This document shows positions 6,103-64,000 of a stretch of DNA of 64,000 bases, piece by piece; the first letter of the stretch is position 1; each line of letters begins with the position of its first letter. A program made the position numbers and the translations under genes. The notes below the pieces were generated by a model, which saw only the letters and a program-made list of their open reading frames with translations, made no database searches and was not told the DNA's origin. The stretch covers positions 23,029-87,028 of the forward strand of contig JBAZCA010000004.1 of assembly GCA_041671125.1 (NCBI GenBank). The letters run 5' to 3'. This DNA comes from Patescibacteria group bacterium. GTDB taxonomy: Bacteria; Patescibacteriota; Patescibacteriia; Patescibacteriales; JBAZCA01.

Positions 6103-6109
6103 AATCAGT

Positions 6110-32180: not shown

Positions 32181-32326
32181 GTCATCCCGAGGAGGAACGA
32201 CGAGGGATCTAACCGCGCTAATCATGAAGATAAATTGAATTGAAAAAAATAAAAATTGTTTTGTTTGAAATTTAATTTGATAAAATCATTTTGAGCAATT
32301 AGATCCTTCGCTCCGCTCAGGATGAC
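32181..32326. repeat. GTCAT...GATGAC inverted-repeat element (long copy, AT-rich interior)
   Basis: The left end is gtcatcccgaggaggaacgacgagggatct. The right end is agatccttcgctccgctcaggatgac. Confidence 0.8.
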
Positions 32327-49400: not shown

Positions 49401-50413
49401 AGGATATTGTCTTTTACTTCTTCCAAAAGCTCCGCCGCCCGTTCGGGATTCGGGTCATGCTTTAAGAGCAGATAAACGGCAGTACGGAGGGCGGTCCAGT
49501 TGTAATAGGTGGCGATTCTTTCGGCGATGGCGTCGCCCATTTTAATTTCCGAATTCTTAAAATACGCTGATAAGAAAATGTTTTTTATTTTTTCGGTAAA
49601 TTCCTTATCGCCAATCCTTCTTCGGCATTTGTATTCCAGCTGTTGGAGGAAGGAGCCGATGTCTCTCGTAAAGTCAGAAAGGCAGATATCAGTAAAGTCT
49701 ATAAAAGCCATTTTTTTATGGCCGATTTTTATGACGTTTTCCGGGTGGGCGTCGCCGTGGATAATCCAGCGCCGTCGGCTCGCGTTAAGGAATTTTTTTT
49801 CCCGGCTGATGACGATATTGAACGCCTCTTCTAAAAGGCTCAAGTATTCCGGATAGCGTTCGCCGATTACTGAAAGGATATGTTTTTTTCCGGGGACCAC
49901 GGTTTCTATCCGGCTGTTGGCTTTATTGAAATTCAAGGCGTTATCGGTCGGGGCTTTATGGAGTTTCGCGAGCCAGAGCGCCGATTTATTGACGATTCTT
50001 TCAATCTCGGGGTAATTTTTTTCGCAGATATAATAGAACAGGTTATGGCCTTTGACCCCGCGATAGAAAACGGCGTTAAAGCGGTTGGAATAGAAAAGCG
50101 GCCGGGGAACGGTAAGATAGCCCTGGGAAAAACCGTTGTTCCAAAGGAACTTCAAAGCCGTATAAACATTTTTTCTCGGCTCCGAATCATGAGCCGAGCA
50201 GAATATCGGAAGCCGCTGAACCCTTTTTTTATCGTCAATAAAAGAAACTTCGTATTCAATTACCACATGGTAAGCCTCTTCCCAGACGTTTTTTTTAATG
50301 GGTGAAATTTTAACTTTTTTTACTTTTTTGAAATTCGGGTAGCGGGGCAGGATTCTTTCTTTAAAAAGATCGGCCGCGAAATTCTCGTCAAAGAGGCTGA
50401 GGATGGAATTCAT
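49391..50413 (-). CDS. Aminoglycoside-phosphotransferase-fold kinase (possibly a sugar kinase such as maltokinase)
   Basis: 340 aa. It has the catalytic loop IHGDAHPENV and the metal-binding motif FIDFTD. The context is alpha-glucan metabolism. The substrate is not determinable from the sequence. Confidence 0.55.
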   Translation of the reverse strand: MNSILSLFDENFAADLFKERILPRYPNFKKVKKVKISPIKKNVWEEAYHVVIEYEVSFIDDKKRVQRLPIFCSAHDSEPRKNVYTALKFLWNNGFSQGYLTVPRPLFYSNRFNAVFYRGVKGHNLFYYICEKNYPEIERIVNKSALWLAKLHKAPTDNALNFNKANSRIETVVPGKKHILSVIGERYPEYLSLLEEAFNIVISREKKFLNASRRRWIIHGDAHPENVIKIGHKKMAFIDFTDICLSDFTRDIGSFLQQLEYKCRRRIGDKEFTEKIKNIFLSAYFKNSEIKMGDAIAERIATYYNWTALRTAVYLLLKHDPNPERAAELLEEVKDNILRT

Positions 50414-50445
50414 ACTGGTTAAGTAGTGGATGATGGTATTAATTA

Positions 50446-51603: not shown

Positions 51604-51662
51604 TTTTATGGGATTATTGGGATGGTTAAGATTAGGCTGTAGAAGAATGTGACTCCTCTTTT

Positions 51663-51755
51663 GTCATTTCGAGCCCGACGCAAGGAGGGCGAGAAATCTA
51701 ATCTTCGTGAAAAAGCATTTATAGCAATTAGATCCCTCGCTTCGCTCGGGATGAC
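51663..51755. repeat. GTCAT...GATGAC inverted-repeat element (93 nt)
   Basis: gtcatttcgagcccgacgcaaggagggcgagaaatct ... agatccctcgcttcgctcgggatgac. Confidence 0.8.
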
Positions 51756-51769
51756 AAAACATTGCTCTG

Positions 51770-53230
51770 TTATCCGTTTATGGCTTTTCTATACAGCTTG
51801 ACGTATTTTTTCGCCGGTATTTCCCAGCTGTTGGACTGCTTTAATGCCCGGCTGACGATCATGTTCCAGTAATTTTTCTGCTTATAAGTTTCTAAAGCCC
51901 TTATTATGGTACCGTATAGGGAAAATTTGTCAAAATTCTTAAAAGAAAAGCCTGTTCCCCGGGCAGGTTTCCTTATATCAAAATTATCCACTGTGTCATT
52001 TAAGCCGCCGACCTTCCTTATGATCGGGATAGCTCCGTAGCGCATGGCGATAAGCTGGTTGATGCCGCAGGGCTCGTGATAGGAGGGAAGGAGAAACAAA
52101 TCCGCGCCGGCGTAAATCAGAGTTTCAATTTTCTGGTCAAAGGGAATCCAGTAGATTTTTTTCGGGTATTTTTTCCGGATTTTTTTCAAAGCGTTAATAT
52201 ACTCCTTATCGCCGTTCCCCATAATGATTAACTGCAAATCAAGTTTGGCCAGAGACTCAAGCAGTTTTACGATTAACTCAAAGCCTTTCTGAAAAGTTAC
52301 CCTTGAAGTTGAGCAGATTAGCGGGATGCCGCCTTCCGGCGCGAGGCCGAACATTTTTTGGACATACTCCTTGTTGGTTTTTTTATTCACGCTGGATTGT
52401 TCGTCAAACCTTTTTACGAGCCCCGGGTCATTGGCCGGATTATAGGCTTTGTAATCTATGCCGTTAATAATTCCGTAAAGCCGGCCGGAGCGGTTCCTCA
52501 AGATACAATGGAGATCCTGGCCGAATTTTTTAGTCATAATTTCTTCCCGGTATTGCTCGCTTACCGTGTTAATTATGTCGGCAAAAAGTATTCCTCTTTT
52601 GGCGAAATTCAGGTACTCAATATTCGGATTCGCCAGAGCCGGTATATCGCCTTTCCCATAGTCCTTTTTTTCCGGAGGCACTTCCCACCAATTCCTTCCG
52701 AGCTGGAAAGCGAGGTTATGGATAGTAAACACCGATTTGGCGTTCCGGAGAATTTCATAGTCTTTAGGCCTGGTTTTTAAAAGGTAGGGGATTAGTCCGG
52801 TTTGCCAGTCATGGCAATGGATTATATCCGCCCTGAATTTGAGAAGCGAGACCAGTTTTAGGGCGGCGGCGTTAAAAATAAAAAATCGGGCGTTTTCATG
52901 CAGCGATCCGTAAATGGCTTTTTTCCCTGAAAAGTATTTTTTGCATTCCACGAAATATACCGGCGAATCTTCTTTTAAATAGCCGCGCCAGTAATTGACC
53001 TTTATGGATTCGGCTGAATTCAGGCTGACGCTGATATCTCTTTCAACCAGTTCCAGATCATATTTTTTTTTATCGGTTATTTTTCCGTAAAGGGGTGTAA
53101 TAACTATTACTTCATGCCCAAGCCGACCGAGCGCCTTTGAAAGGCTTCTTACCACGTCCGCCAGTCCGCCGGTTTTTGAGAACGGCGCCACTTCGCTGGC
53201 TATGGAAACAATTTTCAATTTGTTGGACAT
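51770..53230 (-). CDS. glgA: Glycogen/starch synthase (GT5), paralogue 2
   Basis: 486 aa. It contains IVSIASEVAPFSKTGGLADVVRSLSKAL, PSYHEPCGINQLIAMRYGAIPII and VGGLNDTV. Confidence 0.88.
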   Translation of the reverse strand: MSNKLKIVSIASEVAPFSKTGGLADVVRSLSKALGRLGHEVIVITPLYGKITDKKKYDLELVERDISVSLNSAESIKVNYWRGYLKEDSPVYFVECKKYFSGKKAIYGSLHENARFFIFNAAALKLVSLLKFRADIIHCHDWQTGLIPYLLKTRPKDYEILRNAKSVFTIHNLAFQLGRNWWEVPPEKKDYGKGDIPALANPNIEYLNFAKRGILFADIINTVSEQYREEIMTKKFGQDLHCILRNRSGRLYGIINGIDYKAYNPANDPGLVKRFDEQSSVNKKTNKEYVQKMFGLAPEGGIPLICSTSRVTFQKGFELIVKLLESLAKLDLQLIIMGNGDKEYINALKKIRKKYPKKIYWIPFDQKIETLIYAGADLFLLPSYHEPCGINQLIAMRYGAIPIIRKVGGLNDTVDNFDIRKPARGTGFSFKNFDKFSLYGTIIRALETYKQKNYWNMIVSRALKQSNSWEIPAKKYVKLYRKAING

Positions 53231-53239
53231 GATGGGTGT

Positions 53240-54469
53240 TTAGCCGACAAAGTTTGGCGCATCGGCGCTGAATTTTTTAAAATCAGAGATGATTTTTTTA
53301 ATCATGTCCCTGGTTATGTCCCGTCCGCCAAGGCCGACGACGAAACTTTTTATTTCGGCCGGGTTTTTCTGGAGGACGGCTTTTAGATCCGAAGCCAGCG
53401 GCCCGATATGGCCTAAAGATATGGATTTATCAATAACCGCTATTTTTTTCGTTTTTTCGCAGATTTTTCCGATCTCTTTGCCAGGAAAAGGCCGGAAGCA
53501 TTTTATTTTTAAAATTCCGACCCGATGTCCGGCGGATTTTTTATCCGCATTCCATTCGTCAACAGCTTCTTTCATGGTTCCGATGACCGATCCCATGGCG
53601 ACGAGAATAATGTCCGGATTTTTCGGGCCATAGTATTCGGTTAAACCCGTATCTCGTATCTCATATCTCATATCTCGCCTGCCTGCCGACGAGGCAGGTA
53701 TTTTATCTTTTTTCTGATTTTTCGTTTCAGCCAGGCTAAAGATGTTCATCAGTTTTTCATATTCATCCGAAATAATTTTTTTTGAAGCCAGGATGTCGTC
53801 ATTTAAGTCCTGCCTTATTTCCATGTAATGGTCAGGTGTCGCGAGCGCCCCGAGGGTAACCGGGTTAGCCGGATCAAGATATTCTCCGGTTTTTGGCTTA
53901 TAATCCGGCAAGAATTTTTTTATGGTTTTTTCATCCGGAAGCGCCACCGGCTCAAGGGTGTGGGTAAGGATAAATCCGTCCAGGTTTACCATGACCGGAA
54001 TTTGCAGTTTTTCCGCTACTTTATAAGCGAGCAAATGCTGGGCAATAGTTTCCTGGACGTCTTCGGCGAAAAGCATGATCCAGCCGGCGTCGCGGACGGC
54101 CATGGCGTCGGACTGGTCGTTCCAGATATTAATCGGAGCGGAAACCGCCCGGTTGGCGACGGTCATGACAACCGGCAGGCGCATGCCAGCGATATTAAAA
54201 ACTACTTCAGCCATAAGCAATAGTCCCTGGGAGCTCGTTGCCGTATAAGTCCGTACCCCAGCCGCCGAAGCGCCGGCGACTATGGAAGCGGCGGCGAATT
54301 CGCTTTCGGCCCGGACATATTCGTATTTTCCTTCACCGTCGGCTTTGAATTTCGCCAGGTCTTCAACAATGTGGGTTTGGGGAGTTATCGGGTAAGCCGA
54401 AACCACGCCCGGGTTTATGAGGTTTATTAACTTTGCTATGGCGTTTGAGCCTTCAAGAATTTGCCGCAT
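53240..54469 (-). CDS. porA: 2-oxoacid (pyruvate):ferredoxin oxidoreductase alpha subunit
   Basis: 409 aa. It contains EGSNAIAKLINLINPGVVSAYPITPQT, ESEFAAASIVAGASAAGVRTYTATSSQGL and LVAMGS. Confidence 0.85.
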   Translation of the reverse strand: MRQILEGSNAIAKLINLINPGVVSAYPITPQTHIVEDLAKFKADGEGKYEYVRAESEFAAASIVAGASAAGVRTYTATSSQGLLLMAEVVFNIAGMRLPVVMTVANRAVSAPINIWNDQSDAMAVRDAGWIMLFAEDVQETIAQHLLAYKVAEKLQIPVMVNLDGFILTHTLEPVALPDEKTIKKFLPDYKPKTGEYLDPANPVTLGALATPDHYMEIRQDLNDDILASKKIISDEYEKLMNIFSLAETKNQKKDKIPASSAGRRDMRYEIRDTGLTEYYGPKNPDIILVAMGSVIGTMKEAVDEWNADKKSAGHRVGILKIKCFRPFPGKEIGKICEKTKKIAVIDKSISLGHIGPLASDLKAVLQKNPAEIKSFVVGLGGRDITRDMIKKIISDFKKFSADAPNFVG

Positions 54470-54492
54470 AAAAGTTTAGAATTTAAAATTTT

Positions 54493-54762
54493 TCATTTTT
54501 GTTCCAGATCCATGCCAATCACTTTAAACGGGCATTCGCCCGCGCAAAGGCCGCAACCTTTGCAGTAATCGTAATTGATTATTGCTTTAGGTTTGGCGTG
54601 GCCGGTTACCGGGTCAATGGAAATAATCCCTTCCGGGCAGACCCGGGTGCAGATTGCGCAGCCGGTGCATTTATTAAAATCCACCTCTGGCTTAAAAGTC
54701 CGCCAGGCGCCGGTTTTATTTTTTTCCGTGGAATTGGGTTTTACGGATATGGGTAATTTCAT
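54493..54762 (-). CDS. porD: 2-oxoacid:ferredoxin oxidoreductase delta subunit (2x[4Fe-4S] ferredoxin)
   Basis: 89 aa. It has CTGCAICTRVCP and CKGCGLCAGECP cluster motifs. Confidence 0.85.
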   Translation of the reverse strand: MKLPISVKPNSTEKNKTGAWRTFKPEVDFNKCTGCAICTRVCPEGIISIDPVTGHAKPKAIINYDYCKGCGLCAGECPFKVIGMDLEQK

Positions 54763-54776
54763 GTTTTTATTTTATC

Positions 54777-54869
54777 GTCATCCTGACCCCGCATTCGCGG
54801 GGGAAGGATCTCGCATTTAGAGCTATTACCACGGGATTCTTCGCTACGTTTCACTTCGCTCAGAATGAC
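54777..54869. repeat. GTCAT...GATGAC inverted-repeat element (93 nt) between porG and porD
   Basis: gtcatcctgaccccgcattcgcgggggaaggatctcg ... cgggattcttcgctacgtttcacttcgctcagaatgac. It is stop-free in the VIL... frame. Confidence 0.85.
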
Positions 54870-54876
54870 GGCCGAT

Positions 54877-55449
54877 TTATTTAACTGCCGCGTAGGCTTT
54901 TTCTATGGCGGCGATATTCTTTTTTACCACTTCTTCGCCCTTTCCGGCAAGCTGTTCCTTAATAGCTTCATCAAGTGATTTCAGCGTAATGAAACCGGTA
55001 ATTTTTGAAAAAGCTCCAAGAATTACCGTATTAACAATGTTTCTGCCGATTGTTTCCAGGGCGATTTTAGTCGCGTCCAGGGTGTGGATTTTTTCGGCCG
55101 GCAACTTAGCAACTTTACTTATTTCCTCCGCGCTTTTGGCGGTGTTAATAATCATTATCGTATTTTTTCCGGCGCCTTCGGAAAGGTTAACCGCGCCTAA
55201 AAGGGTCGCGTCCTGGACGATTATCACGTCCGGATGGTAGACATGTTCGCGCAGGCGGATCGGTTTTTCGTCAATCCGGGAAAAAGCCATAATCGGCGCG
55301 CCCCGGCGTTCCACGCCGAAATAGGGGAAGGCCTGGGCTTCTTTTCCGTCGCGGAAAGCCGAGACGGCGATCAATTCGGCGGAAGTAACGACTCCCTGGC
55401 CGCCGCGGCCGTGGATTCTTATTTGGAGCATAGAAGTGATAATTTTCAA
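54877..55449 (-). CDS. porG: 2-oxoacid:ferredoxin oxidoreductase gamma subunit
   Basis: 190 aa. It contains IRIHGRGGQGVVTSAELIA and FPYFGVERRGAP. Confidence 0.85.
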   Translation of the reverse strand: MKIITSMLQIRIHGRGGQGVVTSAELIAVSAFRDGKEAQAFPYFGVERRGAPIMAFSRIDEKPIRLREHVYHPDVIIVQDATLLGAVNLSEGAGKNTIMIINTAKSAEEISKVAKLPAEKIHTLDATKIALETIGRNIVNTVILGAFSKITGFITLKSLDEAIKEQLAGKGEEVVKKNIAAIEKAYAAVK

Positions 55450-55470
55450 TTTCTAATTTTAAATTAGTTC

Positions 55471-55548
55471 GTCATTCTGAGGCCGAAGGCCGAAGAATCT
55501 CGTGGCAATAGCTCTGTTCACGGGATCCTTCGCTACGCTCAGGATGAC
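55471..55548. repeat. GTCAT...GATGAC inverted-repeat element (78 nt)
   Basis: gtcattctgaggccgaaggccgaagaatctcgtg...gggatccttcgctacgctcaggatgac. This is the closest relative of the leuS-internal copy. Confidence 0.85.
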
Positions 55549-55595
55549 GACAAAAATTTTTTCATTTTATATTTAGTTCTTTCCGCGAATAGGGT

Positions 55596-56249
55596 TTACT
55601 CACTTGTCATCTGCTTTATTAATTTATCCCAAATGTCCAGTGGCATATCTCCTTTTACCATATAACCGTTTATAATCCAAGTCGGTGTGCCTGAGAGGCC
55701 AATTGCCTGCGCTTCCAAGACATCCTTCTTAATATCCTCCCGGTATTTATTTCCATCATAGCATTCTTTAAAGCGGGCTTCGTTAGCGCCGATTTGTTTC
55801 GCGGCTTCCAGTATGCCGTCCGCCGTATTAATGCCCTGGTTTAAAAAAAGCTTGTCATGCATGGGCCAGAAAAGCCCCTGCTCGCCGGCGCATCTCGCCC
55901 CTTCGGCAAGATCCAAAGATTCTTCAAACTGCGGGTAATCCTTGTAAACCAGTTGGACGTCTTTTTTGTAAGTCGTTATCAGTTCGCGGATAGTTGAAAA
56001 GGAATTTTTACAGTTCGGACAGGCAAAATCGCCGAACTCAATAATCGTTACTTTCGGGTCAGCCGATCCGAGCCAGTAGTTGCCGACAATATTAATATCA
56101 TGCTTTTTTCCGCCGAGCCGTATTTTGCCGGCGAGATCAGCCCGGGTTTCCCGGTATATTTTAACGATATAGAAACCAAAGGCAATGCCAAAAGCCAGGG
56201 TAAAGAAAAGCGCGAGGAACAAAATTATTTTTAATATTTTTTTCGCCAT
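55596..56249 (-). CDS. DsbA-family thiol:disulfide oxidoreductase, membrane anchored
   Basis: 217 aa. It has an N-terminal TM helix and the thioredoxin-fold active site FGDFACPNC. Confidence 0.78.
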   Translation of the reverse strand: MAKKILKIILFLALFFTLAFGIAFGFYIVKIYRETRADLAGKIRLGGKKHDINIVGNYWLGSADPKVTIIEFGDFACPNCKNSFSTIRELITTYKKDVQLVYKDYPQFEESLDLAEGARCAGEQGLFWPMHDKLFLNQGINTADGILEAAKQIGANEARFKECYDGNKYREDIKKDVLEAQAIGLSGTPTWIINGYMVKGDMPLDIWDKLIKQMTSE

Positions 56250-56327
56250 TTGAAATAGCGCTAAGGATGGATTATAATGTAAATAGATAGCTTAATTTAA
56301 ATCTGCGATGCTTTAAAATAAATATTT

Positions 56328-56476
56328 GTCATCCTGAGGCCGATTAGGCTGAAGGATCTGCAGTTGCAATAATCTGGAGATATTGCATGTTCTATAAGGT
56401 TAGTCTATAAATTGACCGCCATTTGACTATGCAAGGTTGTAGATCCTTCGCTCCGTTCCACTCCGCTCAGGATGAC
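56328..56476. repeat. GTCAT...GATGAC inverted-repeat element (long copy)
   Basis: gtcatcctgaggccgattaggctgaaggatct ... agatccttcgctccgttccactccgctcaggatgac. Confidence 0.8.
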
Positions 56477-56504
56477 AATGGTAATAATATTATATCATTT
56501 TCTC

Positions 56505-56660
56505 ATGAATAAACAAAGTAAAAGTAATTACGAAGCCATCCAGTCTGAACTGGAAAAAAAACGCGAGAGGCGGGAGAGAAAAAAACGGCCCAAGATGAAA
56601 GTGAGCGGCGCGGGGGTGAAGAGGTTGCAGGGATTGATTATTAAGAAAGCGGTTTCTTAA
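56505..56660 (+). CDS. Hypothetical small basic protein (51 aa)
   Basis: MNKQSKSNYEAIQSELEKKRERRERKKRPKMKVSGAGVKRLQGLIIKKAVS. I trimmed the track start (56472) because it lies inside the repeat element. Confidence 0.35.
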   Translation: MNKQSKSNYEAIQSELEKKRERRERKKRPKMKVSGAGVKRLQGLIIKKAVS

Positions 56661-56939
56661 TTTGTCATACCGGCCAGCGAGCCGGTATCCAGGCTTAAGA
56701 GGCAATAATGCCTTTAACTTAAAAACATCAAAAGAGCTTTTGACTCTGGATTCCCGCTTTCGCGGGAATGACAGGTAGGGAGTGCCATGGCTCGGTTGAC
56801 AAGCCCGGCTATAATAGGGTAAGTTAATGGGTTATTTATATATTTTGCTCGTTTAAATAGTGTTTTTTCCGGACAATACCAGGCAGGCTGGCGGTTATCC
56901 GGTGGAGGATATTTTTTGAATTTTTGAGAGGGAAAGGGG

Positions 56940-57197
56940 GTGATTTTATTGAAGGCAAGAATCGCTTTAGCGATTCTGAGCCATGCCCCGGCTTGTGTGC
57001 TGGGAAAGGCGGTGCTTTTACTGTTGGGTACCGCTGTCTACTTCTTCTGGAGTGGGCAGGTTTCCTGGCTTACGTTAGGGGCGGCCGTGGCGACTGGAAT
57101 CATGGGGTTGGTATTGATTTGGTTCCAGGCAGATCTGGCACTTTGGTTTCTGGCGTCAAACGAAGATGTCGCCATGGCATGGAAGGAAGAGGGGTAA
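56940..57197 (+). CDS. Hypothetical small membrane protein (85 aa, 3 predicted TM helices)
   Basis: A GTG start preceded by GGGAAAGGGGG (RBS-like). It is followed by a strong terminator at 57220-57250. The overlapping frame 56924-57232 is less protein-like. Confidence 0.45.
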   Translation: MILLKARIALAILSHAPACVLGKAVLLLLGTAVYFFWSGQVSWLTLGAAVATGIMGLVLIWFQADLALWFLASNEDVAMAWKEEG

Positions 57198-57219
57198 AAT
57201 CCTCTGAACATTTTTGTCT

Positions 57220-57250
57220 GCCCGGGAGATAGGAACCCGGGCTTTTTTTT
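57220..57250 (+). terminator. Rho-independent terminator
   Basis: gcccggg-agataggaa-cccgggc followed by TTTTTTTT. Confidence 0.8.
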
Positions 57251-57397
57251 GTCTGAACTACTGATCTGCCCTCGCTCGCCTCGCTTTCGCTCCGGCGAAG
57301 CGGGCCGGCTGGCGGGTTTTCACATGATTTCCCTGATTATACTGATTTTAATTTTCTGTGTAATCACGTGCTTTCAGTAAGAATCAGTGGTTCAGAC
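57251..57397. repeat. Long hairpin element upstream of leuS with locus-specific terminal stem
   Basis: gtctgaactactgat...gaatcagtggttcagac. The interior block ctcgctcgcctcgctttcgctccggcgaagcggg resembles 42312-42345. Confidence 0.7.
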
Positions 57398-57481
57398 AAG
57401 CGGCACGGCAAGGCTTGAAAAATCATGAAAATTAGCCTAATATGGTAAACATAATAATTGGAGTAAAAATAAGGCAACAAT

Positions 57482-60109
57482 ATGGCTAAATACAATCACA
57501 AAGAAATTGAACCGAAATGGCGAAAGAATTGGGATGAGTCGGGAATTTATAAAACTGGAGAAGGTAAGGACAAGCCCAAATACTATATCCTGGACATGTT
57601 TCCGTATCCTTCGGGCGCCGGGCTGCATGTCGGCCACCCCAAAGGCTACATTGCTACGGATGTGTATGGAAGAATGAGGATGATGCAGGGGTATAATGTC
57701 TTGCACCCAATGGGCTGGGACGCGTTCGGCCTGCCGGCCGAGAATTTTGCCCTCGCGAACAAAGTCCATCCGCGGATAGCGACGGAAAAAAATATCGCCA
57801 CTTTTAAAAAACAGCTCGCGCAATTAGGCTTTACTTATGACTGGGAGCGGGAAATCAATACGACTGACCCGGAATTTTATAAATGGACCCAGTGGATATT
57901 TTTAGAAATGTTTAAACGCGGCCTGGCATACGAATCGCGCGAACCGATAAATTGGTGCCCGTCCTGCAAAACCGGCCTCGCTAACGAAGACCTTGAAAAC
58001 GGACGTTGCGAGCGTTGCGGTTCGGTCGTGGAAAAAAAGCCCATGCGGCAATGGGTTCTAAAAATCACCGCTTATGCCGAACGGATGCTGGATGACTTAG
58101 AAAAACTGCCGGACTGGGAAGAGTCTATTAAGGAAATGCAGAAGAATTGGATTGGGAAATCGGAAGGAGCAAGTATAAAATTTCCTGTCATTCTGAGTGC
58201 AGCGGAGCGGAACGAAGAATCTCGTGAAGAGACGGGATCCTTCGCTGACGCTCAGGATGACGTTAGTATTAAGGTTTTTACTACTAGACCTGATACTCTT
58301 TTCGGCGCGACTTACATGGTTTTGGCGCCGGAGCATGAATTAATTAAGAATTATGAATTAAGAATTAAGAATTATGGAGAGGTTAAAAAATACGCTGAAG
58401 ACGCGAAGAAGAAAAGCGAGATAGACCGGGCGGATGTGCAAAAAGAAAAAACCGGCGTTGAGTTAAAGGGAGTGAAGGCAATTAATCCGGTTAATAACGA
58501 GGAAATCCCGGTTTTTGTCGCCGACTATGTTTTAGCCGGTTATGGAACCGGGGCGATTATGGCGGTTCCGGGACATGACGAGCGGGATTTTGAGTTCGCG
58601 AAAAAATACGGACTGGCTATCAGGGAGGTTGTTAAAGCCGAAAAGAAAAATGACGGAGAATGTTTTAGCGGCGAAGGCGTTAGCGTTAATTCCGGGTTTT
58701 TAGACGGCCTTACGACCCCTGAAGCTAAGAAAAAAATGATTTTTTGGCTGGAAGAAAAAGGTATTGGCAAGAAATCAGTGAGTTACAAAATTAAAGACTG
58801 GGTTTTCTCAAGGCAAAGATACTGGGGAGAACCTTTTCCGCTTGCCTATTGCGAACACTGCAAAAATGCGGTTGATGACTTTATTGCCACTTCAAAAATT
58901 GACCTGGGAAAAATTAGATCCTTCGCCTCCTCCGCTGATGCGGGGTCAGCTCAGGATGACAGAGAGAGAGGCGGTTTTACTCTCGGTGAATTATTAAATC
59001 CCGGTTGGATCGGTGTTGATGAATTACCTGTTACATTGCCCGAAGTAGAACATTATGAACCGACCGGAACCGGCGAATCGCCGCTGGCGAATATTGTCGA
59101 ATGGGTGAATACTAAATGTCCGAAATGCGGGGGCGCGGCTAAGCGGGAAACCAACACCATGCCGCAGTGGGCCGGGTCGTCCTGGTATTATCTTAGGTTT
59201 GAAGATCCGAAAAATGATCAGGCTTTGGTTAATAAGGAAAAAGAAAAATACTGGTCGCCGGTGGATTTTTACGTCGGCGGAGCCGAACACGCCACCCGGC
59301 ATTTAATTTACGCCCGCTTCTGGCATAAATTTTTATACGACATCGGCGCTGTCTCTTATGACGAACCGTTTACCCGGCTCCAGCATGTCGGTTTGATATT
59401 AGCCGAAGACGGACGGAAGATGAGTAAGCGTTGGAATAACGTTATCAATCCGGATGAAATCGTTGAAAAATACGGGGCGGACGCCATGCGGGTTTATGAA
59501 ATGTTCATGGGGCCGTTTTCCCAGCCAGTAGCCTGGAATACTAACGGGCTTATTGGGGCGAGGAAATTTCTTGAACGAGTATGGAAATTGAAGTCAAAAG
59601 TCCAGAAGTCAGAGAGTCAAAAGTCCAGAAGTCAGAAGCTTGATAATTTACTTCACAAGACCATAAAAAAAGTCGGGGAAGATATTGAATCGTTTAAATT
59701 TAATACGGCCATTTCCCAGATGATGATCCTGGTTAACGAGATGACCGCGGCTGATGGCCTTAGTAAGGAACAATATCAAGCGTTACTAAAAATACTCGCG
59801 CCGTTCGCCCCGCATTTATGCGAAGAGCTTTGGACGGAAGTGAGAAGCGAGAAAGAATTGGAGAGTATATTTAATGAAGAGTGGCCGAAATATGATCCAG
59901 AGTTAATTAAGGATGAAATAATTGAACTGGTTATCCAGGTGAACGGCAAAGTTAGGGACATGATCAGCGTGGACGCGGAAGTTTCCGAAGAAGAAGCGAA
60001 GAAAATCGCTTTGGAAAGCGAGAACGTAAAAAAATGGACTAAAGGGAAAAGGGCGGAAAAAATCGTGTATGTCAAAGGAAAGCTGGTTAGTATCGTGGTT
60101 AAAGATTAG
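57482..60109 (+). CDS. leuS: Leucyl-tRNA synthetase (carrying repeat-derived in-frame segments)
   Basis: 875 aa. It has the HIGH-type motif PYPSGAGLHVGHP and the KMSKS motif KMSKRW. It also contains FTTRPDTLFGATYMVLAPEH and CP1/editing-domain features. Confidence 0.95.
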   Translation: MAKYNHKEIEPKWRKNWDESGIYKTGEGKDKPKYYILDMFPYPSGAGLHVGHPKGYIATDVYGRMRMMQGYNVLHPMGWDAFGLPAENFALANKVHPRIATEKNIATFKKQLAQLGFTYDWEREINTTDPEFYKWTQWIFLEMFKRGLAYESREPINWCPSCKTGLANEDLENGRCERCGSVVEKKPMRQWVLKITAYAERMLDDLEKLPDWEESIKEMQKNWIGKSEGASIKFPVILSAAERNEESREETGSFADAQDDVSIKVFTTRPDTLFGATYMVLAPEHELIKNYELRIKNYGEVKKYAEDAKKKSEIDRADVQKEKTGVELKGVKAINPVNNEEIPVFVADYVLAGYGTGAIMAVPGHDERDFEFAKKYGLAIREVVKAEKKNDGECFSGEGVSVNSGFLDGLTTPEAKKKMIFWLEEKGIGKKSVSYKIKDWVFSRQRYWGEPFPLAYCEHCKNAVDDFIATSKIDLGKIRSFASSADAGSAQDDRERGGFTLGELLNPGWIGVDELPVTLPEVEHYEPTGTGESPLANIVEWVNTKCPKCGGAAKRETNTMPQWAGSSWYYLRFEDPKNDQALVNKEKEKYWSPVDFYVGGAEHATRHLIYARFWHKFLYDIGAVSYDEPFTRLQHVGLILAEDGRKMSKRWNNVINPDEIVEKYGADAMRVYEMFMGPFSQPVAWNTNGLIGARKFLERVWKLKSKVQKSESQKSRSQKLDNLLHKTIKKVGEDIESFKFNTAISQMMILVNEMTAADGLSKEQYQALLKILAPFAPHLCEELWTEVRSEKELESIFNEEWPKYDPELIKDEIIELVIQVNGKVRDMISVDAEVSEEEAKKIALESENVKKWTKGKRAEKIVYVKGKLVSIVVKD
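58187..58261. repeat. GTCAT...GATGAC element copy (75 nt = 25 codons) inside the leuS reading frame
   Basis: gtcattctgagtgcagcggagcggaacgaagaatctcgtgaagagacgggatccttcgctgacgctcaggatgac is translated as VILSAAERNEESREETGSFADAQDD. Confidence 0.85.
58916..58960. repeat. Half element (AGATCCTTCGC...CTCAGGATGAC, 45 nt) inside the leuS reading frame
   Basis: agatccttcgcctcctccgctgatgcggggtcagctcaggatgac is translated as RSFASSADAGSAQDD. Confidence 0.75.
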
Positions 60110-61103
60110 CCAGAAGCCATTTTCCGTCGGGTTGTTTTTTTACGTGATAATTAACTTTGACTTTGTAGCCACCGAGAGAGAAGAAAATTTCATTGGTGTA
60201 AGTGTATTCTTCCGCCGAAGATTGGGAAAGCTTTGCGTTAAGGAGCATGTTAGCCAGCGTGAATTCCCCGTCTTTATCAAGAAAATCAACCGTGTATTTG
60301 GCTAATTTTTGGGTTTGAGGAGTAAAGTAAGAAACCGCTTCAGCTGCGTCGCCGTCTCTAATAGCTTTGGCCGCTCCGGCCATAACATCGCCAGGGCTGT
60401 TTCTTTCCGCTTCATTTTCGCAATCCGCGCAATCCGGGTTGTTTTCGTTTTCTTCCTCGGGATGATTTTCTTCAGCGCCCGAAGAGCTGGTAACTATTTT
60501 ACTAAAATTTTCATTGGTTATTCCCAGCCCCAACCTTTTAACGACAGCCAGAATATCTTCGGCATCGCTCAAAAGATATTTTTTATTGTCCAGCGGGTTT
60601 ACATACCAGGCCCGCCCTTTGTTTTCCACCTGCAGGAATATTCTGCCGGCGTTTTTCTTAGAAAAAATCGGATCCAGTACTGTTTTTTTCCGATCCAAAG
60701 GACTGTAACCATTAATAATTTCCGTTTTATCATCATAGCCATCGGAATCGGAATCGCGATTATCGGGATTGGTTCCCAGCGCGTCTTCAAGCTTATCGGG
60801 TACGCCGTCAGCGTCCCGGTCGATTATTCCGGTTTCCGCGATAAGGCCAATCGGAATTTTTTTAATGTCGGCGTCAGTAATGCCGATACCCGCCTTTTTT
60901 ATCGCTTCAAAAAAATCAGGTTGCTGGCCCAGACGGTATTTTTTTAAATTTGCGGGGTTTAAATACCAGGCCTCGCCCCTTGACTCAACCTGCAGTATGA
61001 TTCTTCCTGACAGTCTTTCAATAAAATATTCGGCGGCGGAGGTTCGGGCGATGAACCCGCCGGCTATCACTACGGGGATGATTATTATTAATACCTTTCT
61101 CAT
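60099..61103 (-). CDS. Secreted/anchored hypothetical protein with duplicated module and thrombospondin-type-3-like Ca-binding repeats
   Basis: 334 aa with an N-terminal signal/anchor. One module occurs twice: GRIILQVESRGEAWYLNPANLKKYRL...GIGITDADIKKIP and GRIFLQVENKGRAWYVNPLDNKKYLL...GLGITNENFSKI. Between the copies lies DRDADGVPDKLEDALGTNPDNRDSDSDGYDDKTE. Its 3' end overlaps leuS by 11 nt in convergent orientation. Confidence 0.6.
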   Translation of the reverse strand: MRKVLIIIIPVVIAGGFIARTSAAEYFIERLSGRIILQVESRGEAWYLNPANLKKYRLGQQPDFFEAIKKAGIGITDADIKKIPIGLIAETGIIDRDADGVPDKLEDALGTNPDNRDSDSDGYDDKTEIINGYSPLDRKKTVLDPIFSKKNAGRIFLQVENKGRAWYVNPLDNKKYLLSDAEDILAVVKRLGLGITNENFSKIVTSSSGAEENHPEEENENNPDCADCENEAERNSPGDVMAGAAKAIRDGDAAEAVSYFTPQTQKLAKYTVDFLDKDGEFTLANMLLNAKLSQSSAEEYTYTNEIFFSLGGYKVKVNYHVKKQPDGKWLLANL

Positions 61104-61159
61104 TTTATTTAATAATGCTATAATAATGGTATTAAGATGGCTATGAAAAAGCTTAAGTT

Positions 61160-61651
61160 ATGAATATTAAAAAAATACTTTTTCAATTATTAATAGCCGG
61201 GGCAGGAGTTTTTATTTTAGGTGCTGTAATTTATCTTGGGATCGGGGTGAATGATTATTTAAAATGGGTTAAGGTTAAAGCGGCAGTAGCGGAAGGAGCT
61301 TTCCCATGGCAATGCGGAGCGTTTCAAATACTCGGCGGCATGGCCGGGTGCACGGAAACGCAGTATGGCTGTACCTGTAAACTCTGCGAAGCGCTCTGCA
61401 ATGAAAGCACTTTTGTCCAGTTCGTCGGCCAGCCAGGCTGTGGCGGTATGAATTACGCCTGTATTTCCCCGGAGGTAATGCCTTCGGGTATGCCGATTCT
61501 AATGTCCAGCCAAGCGATTTTAGCGGGGACTTCTAATATGATAAGCGCCAACGGGGTAGTCGGTACTCAGTCGCTCGCGGCCCACAGGGTGGAAAAAATT
61601 CTAGATTACTTCAAGGTTATTATAGCAGGAAAGAAGGAAAGTAAAAAATAA
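61160..61651 (+). CDS. Hypothetical membrane-anchored cysteine-rich protein (8 Cys)
   Basis: 163 aa. It has an N-terminal TM helix, then WQCGAF...GCTETQYGCTCKLCEALCNES...GCGGMNYACIS. It is the first gene of a tightly packed plus-strand operon. Confidence 0.5.
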   Translation: MNIKKILFQLLIAGAGVFILGAVIYLGIGVNDYLKWVKVKAAVAEGAFPWQCGAFQILGGMAGCTETQYGCTCKLCEALCNESTFVQFVGQPGCGGMNYACISPEVMPSGMPILMSSQAILAGTSNMISANGVVGTQSLAAHRVEKILDYFKVIIAGKKESKK

Positions 61652-62620
61652 TTGAGTATGCCAATCAAAAGAAAATACCTTTATATTATTTTGCCGGTGG
61701 TTTTTATGGCTGGTATTATTTTTTTCGCGCTGAAAGATGAATCAGCAGAAGCGGCGGCCAAAGCGCTTAATTACTGCGTGGACGCGAAAAATTATTTTTA
61801 CACCAATATCGGATCTTTTGACAGGAGCCGGATAAACGAAAACGACAGAGATGAGGCCAAACTGCTTTATGAATATTACGGCCGCGACGCTAAATGCGAT
61901 ACCGGAAGCGAAGAGGAAAAAAGAATGTGCCATCTTAACCGGTTCATTTTCGGCTGGCCGGGAACATTCCGGCTGGCTGGTAATTTAATCATCCACGGCG
62001 CCAATATTTTCAATTATGGCGCTGACTCCGCCGGCCTCCATTGGATCATGAGCGGATTATATGAAGGAATAAATAACGCGATCGGATTTTCCAATAAGGA
62101 GAATAAAGTTTTGTTCGGGAGAAACGTGTTTACTGATGGGAGTTTCATAATGCCGGCTAAGGGAAATAACAGTATAGCTTTTAGCGGAAAAAATAAAGTT
62201 TCCATAAACGGGAAACAAGACGCGAGCGGGGAAGAGTTAAGTTTTTATGTTGCCACGGGGAATGTTTTATCTCTGCGCGATTCAAATCAATCAGTGGTGA
62301 GCGTAGTGCCGACCGGAGCTGAGACAGGCTTTTTAAGCGTTGGCGATTTTTTCAAAGCCGATAAAATAAGTTTCAGGGGCGAACGGCTGAAATATTGCGA
62401 CTGCGGGAACATTTCCTGCTCCTGCTCCGGAGAAGTAAAAAATTGTTCCTGCAGATGCGATAACGAAGGCAAATGCGTTTGCGAGTGCGCGGGATGCGAG
62501 TGCGCGGGATACAGCGCCGAATATAACTGCGACGAAGAGGGAGCATGTTTGCCGGTTTATAAATGCAGAGGACTCGGGAACGTCTGCGCGAAAAGCGGAG
62601 AAAAAATGATTATTAGATAA
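61652..62620 (+). CDS. Hypothetical anchored/secreted protein, paralogue A, with 16-Cys CxC-rich C-terminal tail
   Basis: 322 aa. The start abuts the upstream stop. It shares YGRDAKC and GTFRLAGNLIIHG blocks with the next gene. The tail reads YCDCGNISCSCSGEVKNCSCRCDNEGKCVCECAGCECAG... Confidence 0.55.
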   Translation: MSMPIKRKYLYIILPVVFMAGIIFFALKDESAEAAAKALNYCVDAKNYFYTNIGSFDRSRINENDRDEAKLLYEYYGRDAKCDTGSEEEKRMCHLNRFIFGWPGTFRLAGNLIIHGANIFNYGADSAGLHWIMSGLYEGINNAIGFSNKENKVLFGRNVFTDGSFIMPAKGNNSIAFSGKNKVSINGKQDASGEELSFYVATGNVLSLRDSNQSVVSVVPTGAETGFLSVGDFFKADKISFRGERLKYCDCGNISCSCSGEVKNCSCRCDNEGKCVCECAGCECAGYSAEYNCDEEGACLPVYKCRGLGNVCAKSGEKMIIR

Positions 62621-62627
62621 TTTATTC

Positions 62628-63494
62628 ATGAAAATAAGAAAATTAAAAAATTATTTTTCGGCGATTTTCCTGCTTTCTGCGGCGTTGTTATTCACTGGAG
62701 CGTATTTTTATTTTTCATTTCTGGCCGGCCGGGCCGCGGACAGCAAAGGATCGCCGGATTTTAATGATACTGAAGTAATTTATGATTACCTGGATTGCTC
62801 TGAAGGGACCTGCGGTCTTGATACTGACGGCAAAGGCAGGGATTCAAAAGCGCTTTTTAAATTTTTCGGGCGCGACGCTGACTGCCTGAATCTAAAAGTT
62901 GACTGCAAAGACTTAACGCTGGAAAAATGCAAAGAGGCGTTTAAAAACGAGTATGACGCTTGCCGGAAAAATTTCAATTACGGCCAGGCGGGTTCTTTTG
63001 AGATGGCCGGAGACCTTAAAGTCAATGGCATAAGGACATACATTGACGGCTATGATAATTTCGGCCGGCATTGGTATAAATCGGGACGGGAGAACGAGGA
63101 TACGGGACAAATAGCGCTTCTGGATAACGCCCGGGGGGTACTTTTTAGCGGCAATATTTATCTGCAGGGCAATACGGCGATTTTTGAGTACGGGCCGAAT
63201 ATCATCGGCTGGAATCTTTCCAAAGGCGAGAGAATAACTCTTGGCGAAGATGTTATGGATTTTTTCTCAAGAAACATAAAACTGGCGCGAATTGATTGGT
63301 TCGGCATGAGAGTAGAAACCGGATTGGAAGTAAAAGACATGAGAATCAATAACGGTATAAGCTGGCGGAGTAAGAAGCTTGGCTGGTCGCCGGTAATCGG
63401 CAATACGACAACTGCCGCCTATAAAGGTTCGGGTGAAAACAAGCAGATTTTTATGTATTGTGATAATGGATTACTGGACTGCCTAGAACAATAG
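62628..63494 (+). CDS. Hypothetical anchored/secreted protein, paralogue B
   Basis: 288 aa with an N-terminal TM/signal. FGRDADC and GSFEMAGDLKVNG...GRHWYKSG...VLFSGNIYLQGN align with paralogue A. Confidence 0.55.
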   Translation: MKIRKLKNYFSAIFLLSAALLFTGAYFYFSFLAGRAADSKGSPDFNDTEVIYDYLDCSEGTCGLDTDGKGRDSKALFKFFGRDADCLNLKVDCKDLTLEKCKEAFKNEYDACRKNFNYGQAGSFEMAGDLKVNGIRTYIDGYDNFGRHWYKSGRENEDTGQIALLDNARGVLFSGNIYLQGNTAIFEYGPNIIGWNLSKGERITLGEDVMDFFSRNIKLARIDWFGMRVETGLEVKDMRINNGISWRSKKLGWSPVIGNTTTAAYKGSGENKQIFMYCDNGLLDCLEQ

Positions 63495-63541
63495 TTAATG
63501 ACAAATTCAAATTTATACCGCGGAAACCGGGAAAAAAACAC

Positions 63542-64000
63542 ATGAAATTAAAATCTACAAACGGAATGTTTTCAGTAAAAATATTTTTGGGTCTTTTGTT
63601 TTTCCTGTTTTTTTTACCGTTGCGGCCGGTGTCGGCTGATTTTTTTGAATGCTACGAAACAGACTCAGACAACATTTTGGATAAATTTTTAGATTATATT
63701 TTGCCGGTTGGAAATTGCCGGGCGCCCCTCTTTCTCCAAAACCGAGGCGACGCGGTTTATAAGAGCTACGCTTTATATGAATGGGAAGAGCCCGGCTGTC
63801 CTAAAAATAATCTCACGATAAAAAACACGCGAAATTGTGGCGACAAAGATTTTCCCTGCTACTGCGATTCAAAATCCGGCAATCCCGAATACCAGTGCGG
63901 AAAAATCAAAGGCGCGGCTTACATTGACCGTCCGTTTTACTATATTTATCATGATGACGGAGATTTTGAAATCAAGGGGAACATCGGTTCAACCGGAGAT
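63542..64000 (+). CDS. Hypothetical secreted cysteine-rich protein, probable paralogue C (runs off the right window edge)
   Basis: Not in the ORF track because it is open-ended. The ATG at 63542 gives MKLKSTNGMFSVKIFLGLLFFLFFLPLRPVSADFFECYETDSDN...CGDKDFPCYCDSKSGNPEYQCGKIKG...GDFEIKGNIGSTGD. It is in frame to position 64000. Confidence 0.5.
   Translation, partial: MKLKSTNGMFSVKIFLGLLFFLFFLPLRPVSADFFECYETDSDNILDKFLDYILPVGNCRAPLFLQNRGDAVYKSYALYEWEEPGCPKNNLTIKNTRNCGDKDFPCYCDSKSGNPEYQCGKIKGAAYIDRPFYYIYHDDGDFEIKGNIGSTGD

What the first reader, a model, noticed from the sequence alone, without database searches (positions are those of the whole stretch)
58187..58261. Complete 75-nt inverted-repeat element sits in frame inside leuS
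The element starts exactly at a codon boundary (57482 + 705). It is 25 codons long and encodes VILSAAERNEESREETGSFADAQDD. Block for block it is homologous to the intergenic copy at 55471-55548: GTCATTCTGAG ... GAAGAATCTCGTG ... GGGATCCTTCGCT.ACGCTCAGGATGAC. It lies between the conserved NWIGKSEGASIKF and IKVFTTRPDTLFGATY blocks. In E. coli LeuRS, as I recall it, the equivalent blocks are separated by about 8 residues (NVNDYDNT). Here the separation is 28 residues. Two intergenic copies that I translated (54777-54869, 93 nt; 55471-55548, 78 nt) are also multiples of 3 and stop-free in the same V-I-L frame. The copy at 51663-51755 has an in-frame TAA. This resembles the behaviour described for Rickettsia palindromic elements, here in an unrelated lineage and an essential aminoacyl-tRNA synthetase.
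Basis: partly seen in the sequence, partly recalled or inferred. Interest (0 to 1): 0.7.

Follow-up and report, generated by a model that had tools for sequence, protein, structure and literature searches.

The report
Ssn-type hairpin pair translated inside leuS
A 75-base palindromic repeat, made of two facing copies of the hairpin motif associated with Ssn GIY-YIG nucleases, sits in frame inside the essential leucyl-tRNA synthetase gene of a Patescibacteria genome and adds a 25-residue floppy surface loop; this is a real, fresh example of a behaviour already known from Rickettsia palindromic elements, not a new kind of element.

Summary
Window 58187-58261 is a 75-nt palindrome that starts on a codon boundary of leuS (57482-60109). 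It is read as VILSAAERNEESREETGSFADAQDD and is homologous block for block to six intergenic copies in the window.

It is not an anonymous MITE. Each arm has the architecture of an Ssn-related motif (SRM/NTS, Chenal et al. 2025): YGTCAT, stem, loop, stem', C. The element is a convergent SRM pair. In other genomes the same arms flank a 96-aa GIY-YIG gene.

The subfamily occurs in many bacterial phyla. Copy lengths show no 3n bias (49/148). Stop codons in the termini leave only the V-I-L...Q-D-D frame open in 3n copies, so genic copies look like survivors of a filter.

The closest relative without the insert is 75% identical, and an 85% relative carries a different palindrome there. Eight listed LeuRS clusters, including the window's own, carry SRM pairs of several subtypes at exactly this codon boundary.

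AlphaFold gives pLDDT <50 for the insert, at the tip of a beta-hairpin 8 residues before the TTRPDT editing motif. leuS also holds a third, single SRM (58917-58960). Sister genomes carry in-frame pairs in ksgA.

Verdict: a new member of known kinds (SRM; RPE-like behaviour). The recurrent-site pattern is unexplained.

The parts
57482..60109 (+). leuS (leucine--tRNA ligase, 875 aa), intact ORF carrying three SRM hairpins
   Evidence: ORF list and translation. 100% match to 'MAG: leucine--tRNA ligase [Patescibacteria group bacterium]'. E = 2e-216 to T. thermophilus LeuRS 1H3N. HVGH and KMSKR motifs are present in the translation.
58187..58261 (.). 75-nt convergent SRM pair (the finding). In frame, 25 codons, VILSAAERNEESREETGSFADAQDD (LeuRS residues 236-260)
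   Evidence: Identical 75/75 in relative L208, whose leuS is 91% identical. AF2 gives pLDDT <50 for residues 244-259, between strands 226-238 and 262-267.
58187..58221 (+). Left arm: SRM-like hairpin (CT)GTC-ATTCT-GAGTGCAGCGGAGCGGAACGA-AGAAT-C
   Evidence: Generic SRM scan. The ssDNA MFE structure pairs ATTCT with AGAAT but is weak: -2.7 kcal/mol, not better than shuffles.
58236..58261 (-). Right arm: SRM-like hairpin (AC)GTC-ATCCT-GAGCGTCAGCGA-AGGAT-C on the minus strand
   Evidence: -4.5 kcal/mol; ATCCT pairs with AGGAT.
58917..58960 (-). Single SRM-like hairpin inside leuS at a second variable site; read in frame as RSFASSADAGSAQDD (about residues 479-493)
   Evidence: Orthologous copy in L001/P0002 (RSFADAQDD), with both conserved boxes identical and an 18-nt loop expansion in the window. 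Absent from P0242 and P0003. AF2 pLDDT <50 at 481-493.
55471..55548 (.). Intergenic convergent SRM pair (78 nt); closest paralogue of the leuS copy
   Evidence: Absent from the orthologous spacer of L001 and L208.
54777..54869 (.). Intergenic convergent SRM pair (93 nt)
   Evidence: Absent in L001.
51663..51755 (.). Intergenic convergent SRM pair (93 nt; GTCATTTCGAG / GTCATCCCGAG stems)
   Evidence: Absent in L001.
56328..56476 (.). Intergenic convergent SRM pair with a long AT-rich centre (149 nt)
   Evidence: L001 keeps only a 3' remnant, AAGGATGACAATAGGAAT. Absent in L208.
56664..56772 (.). Intergenic convergent SRM pair (109 nt). Its right arm, TGTCATTCCCGCGAAAGCGGGAATCCAG, is a near-canonical Neisseria-type NTS
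   Evidence: the only window hit to the published SRM search pattern, and 27/28 to the NTS consensus. ssDNA hairpin -10 kcal/mol, z = -5.2. Conserved in L208.
32181..32326 (.). Intergenic convergent SRM pair with an AT-rich centre (146 nt)

Best explanation
What it is. The 75-nt insert is a gene-less, MITE-like derivative of the SRM-ssn-SRM cassette. It consists of two Ssn-related-motif hairpins (YGTCAT, stem, loop, stem', C) facing each other. This is the layout that in other genomes flanks a roughly 96-aa single-domain GIY-YIG (Ssn-like) nuclease gene.

Shown here:
- the architecture of the arms;
- membership of a multi-copy, cross-phylum repeat family;
- association of identical arms with GIY-YIG genes;
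- presence/absence differences between close relatives.

Inferred history and consequences:
- A copy landed, or was copied, into the tip of the first beta-hairpin of the LeuRS editing (CP1) domain, after the lineage split from the P0002 and P0003 lineages.
- It survived because its length is 3n and because it sits in the only frame of the element that lacks stops (GTC-ATY-CTG ... CAG-GAT-GAC).
- That frame encodes a hydrophilic peptide in a loop that tolerates almost anything.
- It is transcribed and translated as a disordered 25-residue loop and is near-neutral for LeuRS.
- Mobilisation in trans by an Ssn nuclease acting on single-stranded DNA is inferred. It has not been shown here or in the literature.
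For: Arm architecture.
- The stem 5-mers co-vary across subfamilies: ATTCT/AGAAT, ATCCT/AGGAT, ATGCT/AGCAT, ACCCT/AGGGT, ATTGC/GCAAT, ATCCC/GGGAT.
- 273 of 883 YGTC sites have the reverse complement of the stem within 40 nt, against 30 in the control.
- All seven window pairs are convergent.
- One window arm matches the published SRM pattern and the NTS consensus at 27/28 positions (PMC11893778).

Link to GIY-YIG genes.
- L045 4057-4431 has the same arms around a 96-aa GIY-YIG ORF (PF01541, E = 3.8e-18).
- Of 68 metagenomic homologues of that ORF with both flanks available, 16 have both arms of this subtype. Most others have variant GTCATTGCGAG.../...CTCGCAATGAC arms.

Family size and spread.

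Turnover between relatives.
- L002 (75% aa) has an empty site.
- L001 (85% aa) has a different palindrome at the site and lacks the window's intergenic copies.
- L208 (91% nt) lacks two of the intergenic copies.

Filter rather than adaptation.
- 49/148 copies are 3n.
- In 3n copies frame 0 is open in 27-33 of 49, and the other frames are closed in at least 47 of 49.

Structure. pLDDT is below 50 at both inserts, between confident strands.

Other in-frame copies.
- ksgA of L001 and L207.
- Large Planctomycetota proteins in L089 and L095.
- LeuRS P0040 at a third site.
Against: - No Ssn/GIY-YIG gene lies in the 64-kb window or in the related leuS loci. The rest of the genome was not available.
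- The leuS arms do not match the published degenerate SRM search pattern. As isolated ssDNA hairpins they are weak, so the long arm-to-arm hairpin would dominate thermodynamically.
- There is no target-site duplication and no clean empty-site/filled-site pair, so insertion as a discrete event is inferred.
- All eight full SRM pairs at this LeuRS loop, and five remnants, start at the same codon boundary (F-x|V). A pure tolerance filter does not obviously predict that.
- Transcription and translation of the insert are untested.
Confidence: 0.75

Rival explanations
1. The insertion at this LeuRS codon boundary is ancient, shared by much of this Patescibacteria LeuRS clade. It is kept 'young' and switched between SRM subtypes by concerted evolution: Ssn-triggered or homology-driven gene conversion from other genomic copies, using the shared GTCAT/ATGAC ends. 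It has been deleted repeatedly. On this view the window copy is not a recent independent insertion.
For: - The junction is identical (NNT|GTC ... GAC|) in 6 of 6 copies examined at DNA level and in 13 of 13 at peptide level, across LeuRS proteins only 60-66% identical.
- Several subtypes (VILS, VILE, VIAS, VIPS) occupy the same slot.
- Decayed remnants exist: VIASEAKQSNEQD, VIPSEAEGSLSE.
- The same phenomenon occurs in one ksgA loop with two subtypes.
- The element is 75/75 identical between the window and L208, while the flanks are about 91% identical.
- The boxes of the site-2 SRM are identical between the window and L001 at about 80% background identity.
Against: - The 75% relative has a clean short loop. 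The 85% relative has an unrelated palindrome with no SRM trace.
- Carriers are scattered over a neighbour-joining LeuRS tree (weak resolution).
- The 75/75 identity is only modestly unusual: 3.6% of 75-nt windows in the same alignment are also difference-free.
- Non-Patescibacteria LeuRS have the short loop.
Confidence: 0.2
2. The element is an ordinary MITE mobilised by a DDE or other transposase, and the resemblance to Ssn-related motifs is coincidental.
For: It has terminal inverted repeats, small size and many copies, and copies are present or absent between relatives. No Ssn gene lies in the window.
Against: - No target-site duplication: 2-5-nt direct repeats are at or below expectation.
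- No transposase with matching ends was seen.
- The same arms repeatedly flank a GIY-YIG gene.
- Each arm is itself a co-varying hairpin of NTS design. TIR recognition does not need that.
Confidence: 0.05
3. The 25 residues are a selected, lineage-specific functional loop of LeuRS, and the DNA palindrome is incidental or secondary.
For: The insert is retained intact in at least three independent assemblies spanning about 9% leuS nucleotide divergence. The loop lies 8 residues upstream of the TTRPDT editing motif.
Against: - The same sequence occurs in intergenic DNA.
- The closest outgroups lack it.
- It is predicted to be disordered.
- Other lineages fill the same loop with unrelated repeat-derived peptides or whole domains.
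Confidence: 0.05
4. The hairpin is not translated. It is bypassed by the ribosome or removed from the mRNA, as with T4 gene 60 or the mitochondrial bypass elements.
For: The mRNA hairpin is very stable (-39.7 kcal/mol).
Against: Every genic copy found in an intact conserved gene adds 3n bases and is stop-free in the host frame. Bypassing or excision would not require that. No Rfam family matched.
Confidence: 0.03

Closest known systems
Ssn-related motifs (SRM), including the Neisseria NTS/dRS3 repeats, and the NTS-ssnA-NTS cassette of Ssn GIY-YIG ssDNA nucleases (Chenal et al., Nat Commun 2025, PMC11893778)
   Same: - Design YGTCAT, stem, loop, stem', C.
- Hundreds-of-copies behaviour.
- Convergent copies flanking a single-domain GIY-YIG gene of about 95 aa.
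- One window arm is 27/28 identical to the NTS consensus.
   Different: - The leuS arms use a different stem (ATYCT-GAGCG...CGA-AGRAT, with tandem G.A) that the published search pattern misses.
- Here the unit is a gene-less pair behaving like a MITE.
- Here it is read in frame inside essential genes. The paper reports NTS as rarely genic (2%) and does not discuss translation.
Rickettsia palindromic elements (RPE; Ogata et al. 2000, 2002, as summarised in PMC10969869), especially RPE4 (NCBIfam TIGR03777)
   Same: - Palindromic repeats inserted in frame into unrelated housekeeping genes, compatible with the protein fold.
- The RPE4 motifs RGLTTGS and DPVVKPRDD (my recalled peptide hits TIGR03777 at E = 5e-12) back-translate to mutually reverse-complementary arms ending in ...GGGATGAC. 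That is the same GTCAT-terminated hairpin-pair design (inference).
   Different: - The host is Patescibacteria.
- The element is 75 nt rather than about 100-150 nt.
- The window peptides match no RPE/WPE model.
- There is no 3n or coding bias in the family at large.
REP/BIME elements with RAYT (IS200/IS605-like Y1) transposases
   Same: Short hairpin repeats occur in alternating orientation and are tied to a small single-strand-specific nuclease gene flanked by its own repeats. The Ssn paper draws this analogy.
   Different: The enzyme fold differs (GIY-YIG versus HUH/Y1). There is no GTAG head. REPs are essentially extragenic.
Intragenic bacterial MITEs (ERIC, Correia, Nezha, etc.; PMC10969869)
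   Same: Small non-autonomous inverted-repeat elements that occasionally create in-frame fusions.
   Different: Those have target-site duplications and DDE-transposase parents. Neither was found here.

Membership tests
Ssn-related motif (SRM/NTS) repeats | Oriented leader YGTCWY followed by a hairpin (stem-loop-stem') and a C-containing tail | tested here: met
   Both leuS arms and all 15 window hairpins have this layout. Position -1 is T in 78% and C in 18% of 298 flanks.
Ssn-related motif (SRM/NTS) repeats | The stem is a real pairing (co-variation between the two stem halves) | tested here: met
   Nine stem variants each have the matching complement. 273/883 against 30 control.
Ssn-related motif (SRM/NTS) repeats | Match to the published degenerate pattern HGTCWYN(0-2)YYVSBRHN(0-5)WNVSBRGN(0-2)RNCYNB | tested here: not met
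   Only 56746-56773(-) matches. The leuS arms do not, because the stem composition differs. The pattern was built by hand from 29 genomes, so this bears on the pattern's breadth more than on the architecture.
Ssn-related motif (SRM/NTS) repeats | Copies flank an ssn-type single-domain GIY-YIG gene on both sides in some genomes | tested here: met
   L045. 16 of 68 metagenomic loci have both arms of this subtype, and most of the rest have variant arms.
Ssn-related motif (SRM/NTS) repeats | An Ssn (cd10448) gene is present in the same genome | tested here: inconclusive
   None in the 64-kb window or in L001-L003 and L204-L207 by tblastn or HMM. The cd10448 assignment of the L045 protein could not be run; its best PDB match is UPF0213 BH0048, E = 1.8e-5.
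Ssn-related motif (SRM/NTS) repeats | Bound and cut upstream by the cognate Ssn as single-stranded DNA only | not testable with these tools
   Biochemical property.
Rickettsia palindromic elements (RPE) | Palindromic repeat found in frame within unrelated protein-coding genes, at positions compatible with the fold | tested here: met
   leuS, ksgA in L001 and L207, L089 and L095.
Rickettsia palindromic elements (RPE) | Encoded peptide matches a curated RPE/WPE family model | tested here: not met
   0 NCBIfam hits at E <= 10 for 16 different insert-derived or family-representative peptides, two of them my own back-translations rather than observed inserts. A positive control peptide hits RPE4.
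Rickettsia palindromic elements (RPE) | The family as a whole keeps an open reading frame (coding-biased repeats) | tested here: not met
   49/148 copies are 3n. Only about 55-67% of those are open, even in the one permissive frame.
Classical MITE | Terminal inverted repeats plus target-site duplication, derived from a transposase-encoding IS | tested here: not met
   TIRs are present. No TSD. The only gene found between such arms is a GIY-YIG nuclease.

The most novel reading that the evidence does not exclude
SRM pairs are not merely tolerated in coding DNA. They may be directed to, or actively maintained at, particular codon boundaries at the tips of surface beta-hairpins of conserved housekeeping genes (LeuRS CP1, KsgA). 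The mechanism would be Ssn-dependent single-strand cleavage and copy-repair. 'Protein-coding palindromes' in Rickettsia (RPE4), Wolbachia and Patescibacteria would then be one pan-bacterial phenomenon driven by the Ssn/SRM system. That system would generate lineage-specific protein loops and possibly modulate recombination of the genes that carry them.
Probability: 0.2. Interest if true: 0.8.

Novelty: new member of a known kind. Interest (0 to 1): 0.5.

Why it matters
- It connects two literatures that, in the papers I could read, are not connected: the 25-year-old puzzle of in-frame palindromic elements in Rickettsia, and the Ssn/SRM nuclease-hairpin system described in 2025.
- It shows the same behaviour in reduced-genome Patescibacteria, inside an essential aminoacyl-tRNA synthetase.
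- It gives a simple mechanical reason for the constant V-I-L...Q-D-D peptide frame.
- It shows that a very widespread SRM subtype escapes the published search pattern.
- It flags one LeuRS loop as a repeatedly used acceptor site. That makes target choice versus tolerance testable.
- Practically, such inserts inflate and diversify Patescibacteria protein sequences and seed spurious small ORFs in annotations.

Tried and rejected
- Rfam scan of 50000-64000 at E <= 1: nothing. The element is not a described RNA family or ribozyme.
- Literature search by DNA string: only primer coincidences. Searches for Candidate Phyla Radiation plus palindromic in-frame repeats, and for COG2827/UPF0213: nothing relevant.
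- My first regex for a GIY-YIG signature found nothing. The ORF in L045 was found by reading the one long copy.
- blastn of the element against PLSDB plasmids: no match.
- Clean empty-site/filled-site junctions: the intergenic sites are too remodelled between the window, L208 and L001 to define them.
- I first reasoned that only one frame is ever open. That holds for 3n copies only; non-3n copies can read VIL...LRMT or HPE...QDD.
- DNA-level constraint on the insert: 75/75 identity against 91% flanks looked strong by a uniform model. It is only p about 0.04 empirically, because differences in leuS are clustered.
- Ogata 2002 (PMC186582) is not held, so the RPE nucleotide consensus could not be read.
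Full report
OBSERVATION

The window comes from a Patescibacteria (CPR) metagenome-assembled genome. The ORF 57482-60109 matches, at 100% rounded identity, a protein that NCBI names 'MAG: leucine--tRNA ligase [Patescibacteria group bacterium]'. It aligns to T. thermophilus LeuRS at E = 2e-216.

They form a 75-nt near-perfect palindrome that begins 705 nt (235 codons) into leuS. The ORF reads through it as VILSAAERNEESREETGSFADAQDD. As RNA it folds into one long hairpin of -39.7 kcal/mol, z = -6.1.

Its 11-nt terminus GTCATYCTGAG occurs 12 times in the window, against 0.63 expected. A multiple alignment shows block-for-block homology with the intergenic copies.

The stretch between the conserved ...IKF and IKVFTTRPDT blocks is 28 residues here. 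T. thermophilus has 8, and the shortest Patescibacteria homologues have 7.

WHAT THE ELEMENT IS

About four matches would be expected by chance in the whole collection (my estimate). Hits came from Bacteroidota, Acidobacteriota, Chloroflexota, Bacillota, Proteobacteria, Planctomycetota, Verrucomicrobiota, Omnitrophota, Patescibacteria and others.

All copies share two conserved boxes per arm: GTCATYCTGAG and CGAAGRATC.

One longer copy, L045 4057-4431 from an Omnitrophota MAG, carries a 96-aa ORF between the arms. That ORF is a single-domain GIY-YIG nuclease (PF01541, E = 3.8e-18).

I fetched 80 metagenomic loci encoding relatives of this protein. Of the 68 with both flanks available, 16 had both arms of exactly this subtype. 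Most others had variant arms such as GTCATTGCGAG...CTCGCAATGAC, GTCACCCTGAG/CGAAGGGTC or GTCATGCTGAG/CGAAGCATC.

Across these variants the 5-mer after GTC always co-varies with its reverse complement just before the final C: 273 of 883 sites against 30 in a control. Each arm is therefore itself a small hairpin: YGTC, stem, loop, stem', C.

This is the architecture of the Neisseria NTS (CGTCATTCCCGCGMAVGCGGGAATCYRG) and of the 'Ssn-related motifs' described by Chenal et al. 2025 (PMC11893778). They showed the following:
- Ssn proteins (about 94 aa, GIY-YIG cd10448) bind these hairpins and cut upstream of them, in single-stranded DNA only.
- 42% of ssn homologues are flanked by SRMs on both sides.
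- The layout resembles an insertion sequence.

The window ties itself directly to that family. The pair at 56664-56772 has an arm, TGTCATTCCCGCGAAAGCGGGAATCCAG, that matches their search pattern and 27 of 28 NTS positions.

The leuS arms do not match their hand-built pattern, because the stem differs. As isolated ssDNA hairpins they are weak. I therefore file the element as a distinct SRM subtype, on architecture and on gene association rather than on the published regex.

The window holds seven convergent pairs and one single SRM. It holds no Ssn gene; the rest of the genome was not available.

WHY IT IS IN FRAME

The family is not biased to coding. Length mod 3 is 42:43:41 in the first census, and 49 of 148 copies are 3n.

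In 3n copies only the frame GTC-ATY-CTG ... CAG-GAT-GAC can be open. It is open in 27-33 of 49 copies. The other two frames hit TGA in the conserved termini in at least 47 of 49 copies, on either strand, because the ends are palindromic.

That explains the constant V-I-L...Q-D-D reading without invoking adaptation. Genic copies are what survives a filter of frame, length and structural tolerance.

AlphaFold2 (76-sequence alignment, mean pLDDT 81) gives pLDDT <50 for residues 244-259, between confident strands 226-238 and 262-267. By alignment to 1H3N this is the tip of the first beta-hairpin of the CP1 editing domain, 8 residues before the TTRPDT motif.

HISTORY

- The syntenic relative L002 (LeuRS 75% identical) has a short, empty loop.
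- L001 (85%) has an unrelated perfect palindrome there (CCGCCCGAGGCGGATCCGCCTCGGGCGG, peptide ...ARGGSASGGE...). It lacks the window's intergenic pairs except for one remnant.
- Two cluster members at 90% or more (P0241, and P0242/L208) carry the identical 25 residues. For L208 the DNA is also identical, 75/75, against about 91% in the flanks.
- That conservation is only modestly unusual, because 3.6% of 75-nt windows in the gene are also unchanged.
- L208 lacks two of the window's intergenic pairs. The family therefore turns over on this time scale.

A RECURRENT SITE

Among the 120 best LeuRS homologues, eight clusters including the window's own (P0001) carry full SRM pairs at this same codon boundary (F-x|V-I-...). 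The other seven are only 59-69% identical to the window protein. Five more carry remnants.

The subtypes differ: VILS, VILE/VILN, VIAS from the GTCATTGCGAG subtype, and VIPS.

In six loci I confirmed the nucleotide palindrome and the same junction, NNT|GTCAT...ATGAC|. Carriers are scattered on a neighbour-joining tree (weakly resolved).

Other lineages fill the loop with other repeat-derived peptides or with whole hydrolase or NUDIX domains.

The same thing happens in ksgA. L001 and L207 carry in-frame pairs of two different subtypes in one loop.

No target consensus exists beyond the element's own T at -1, and there is no target-site duplication. I cannot decide between three histories:
- repeated independent insertion plus a strong positional filter;
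- some form of targeting;
- an old insertion kept homogeneous, and switched between subtypes, by conversion from other copies.

This is the part that remains unexplained.

SECOND SITE

leuS also carries a single SRM at 58917-58960 on the minus strand, read as RSFASSADAGSAQDD. L001 shares it, with both boxes identical and an 18-nt loop expansion in the window. It is missing from P0242 and P0003. AF2 again gives pLDDT <50, at 481-493.

Its distribution is incongruent with overall identity: present in the 85% relative and absent in the 94% one. That suggests recombination within leuS.

COMPARISON WITH KNOWN SYSTEMS

The behaviour is that of Rickettsia palindromic elements: in-frame insertion into housekeeping genes, compatible with the fold (PMC10969869).

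The window peptides match no curated RPE or WPE model, so the element is not a member of those families.

A Rickettsia peptide I recalled from memory (RGLTTGSSKNLINLLDPVVKPRDD) hits NCBIfam RPE4 at E = 5e-12. Its two motifs back-translate to mutually reverse-complementary arms, CGTGGCTTGACCACGGGATCC and GATCCCGTGGTCAAGCCACGGGATGAC. Those arms have the GTCAT-terminated hairpin design.

Chenal et al. list Rickettsia and Wolbachia among SRM-rich taxa but do not mention RPEs or in-frame copies. That RPE4 is a translated SRM pair is therefore a plausible inference, not a tested result.

VERDICT

The coding-bias hint is wrong. The element belongs to an already described family (SRM/Ssn) as a subtype the published pattern misses.

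What is new:
- the host lineage;
- the essential target gene;
- the frame-filter explanation;
- the repeated use of one LeuRS loop.

Noticed in passing
LeuRS homologues P0008, P0017, P0020, P0021, P0026, P0032, P0034, P0036, P0047, P0056, P0057, P0059, P0084, P0088, P0092, P0095, P0108: Many Patescibacteria LeuRS carry whole extra domains (alpha/beta-hydrolase, NUDIX, others; 130-350 aa). The domains sit in the same two loops that hold the hairpin repeats: after WIGxSEG...F, and within the HCExCG knuckle.
   Followed up: partly
L001 10691-10771 (leuS of the 85% relative): The same LeuRS loop holds a different perfect palindrome, CCGCCCGAGGCGGATCCGCCTCGGGCGG (peptide SARGGSASGGE). The motif GGSASGG recurs in P0035. 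This suggests a second in-frame repeat family in these genomes.
   Followed up: partly
L001 19263-19327 and L207 ksgA (5599-6498): The rRNA adenine dimethyltransferase gene (KsgA/RsmA) carries in-frame SRM pairs in one loop just before the KxYK(I/V)VANLPYN motif. The two loci have two different subtypes: VILRELATEESIIDPSLTLRMT, and RHPRESGDP...IPAFAGMT (NTS-like).
   Followed up: partly
P0242 / L208 versus window 58840-59000: A LeuRS 94% identical overall has the short site-2 segment typical of the 75% relative. The 85% relative shares the window's long SRM-containing segment. This mosaic pattern suggests recombination inside leuS.
   Followed up: partly
window 57249-57399; also 8451-8614, 19115-19263, 31305-31442, 40000-40177, 46084-46215, 49258-49400: Several other inverted-repeat elements of about 100-160 nt, unrelated in sequence to the SRM pairs, are scattered through the window. 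One lies just upstream of leuS. They may be further MITE-like families.
   Followed up: no
L089 6812-6901 (Planctomycetia MAG) and L095 6886-6960 (Thermoguttaceae MAG): 3n-length SRM pairs (90 and 75 nt) lie in frame inside very long ORFs (over 2600 and 1181 codons). In-frame copies are therefore not confined to Patescibacteria. The host proteins were not identified.
   Followed up: partly
window leuS codon 444 versus P0001: P0001 (reported as 100% identical) has W where the window and P0241 have R, in the conserved RQRYWGEP motif. The window therefore corresponds to the P0241 sequence (MFA6928302.1) rather than to P0001.
   Followed up: no
L016 7582-7751, L060 3237-3838, L097 1647-1889: In some genomes the pairs occur in tandem clusters of two to four copies, reminiscent of the NTS clusters / NIME arrays described in Neisseria.
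   Followed up: no
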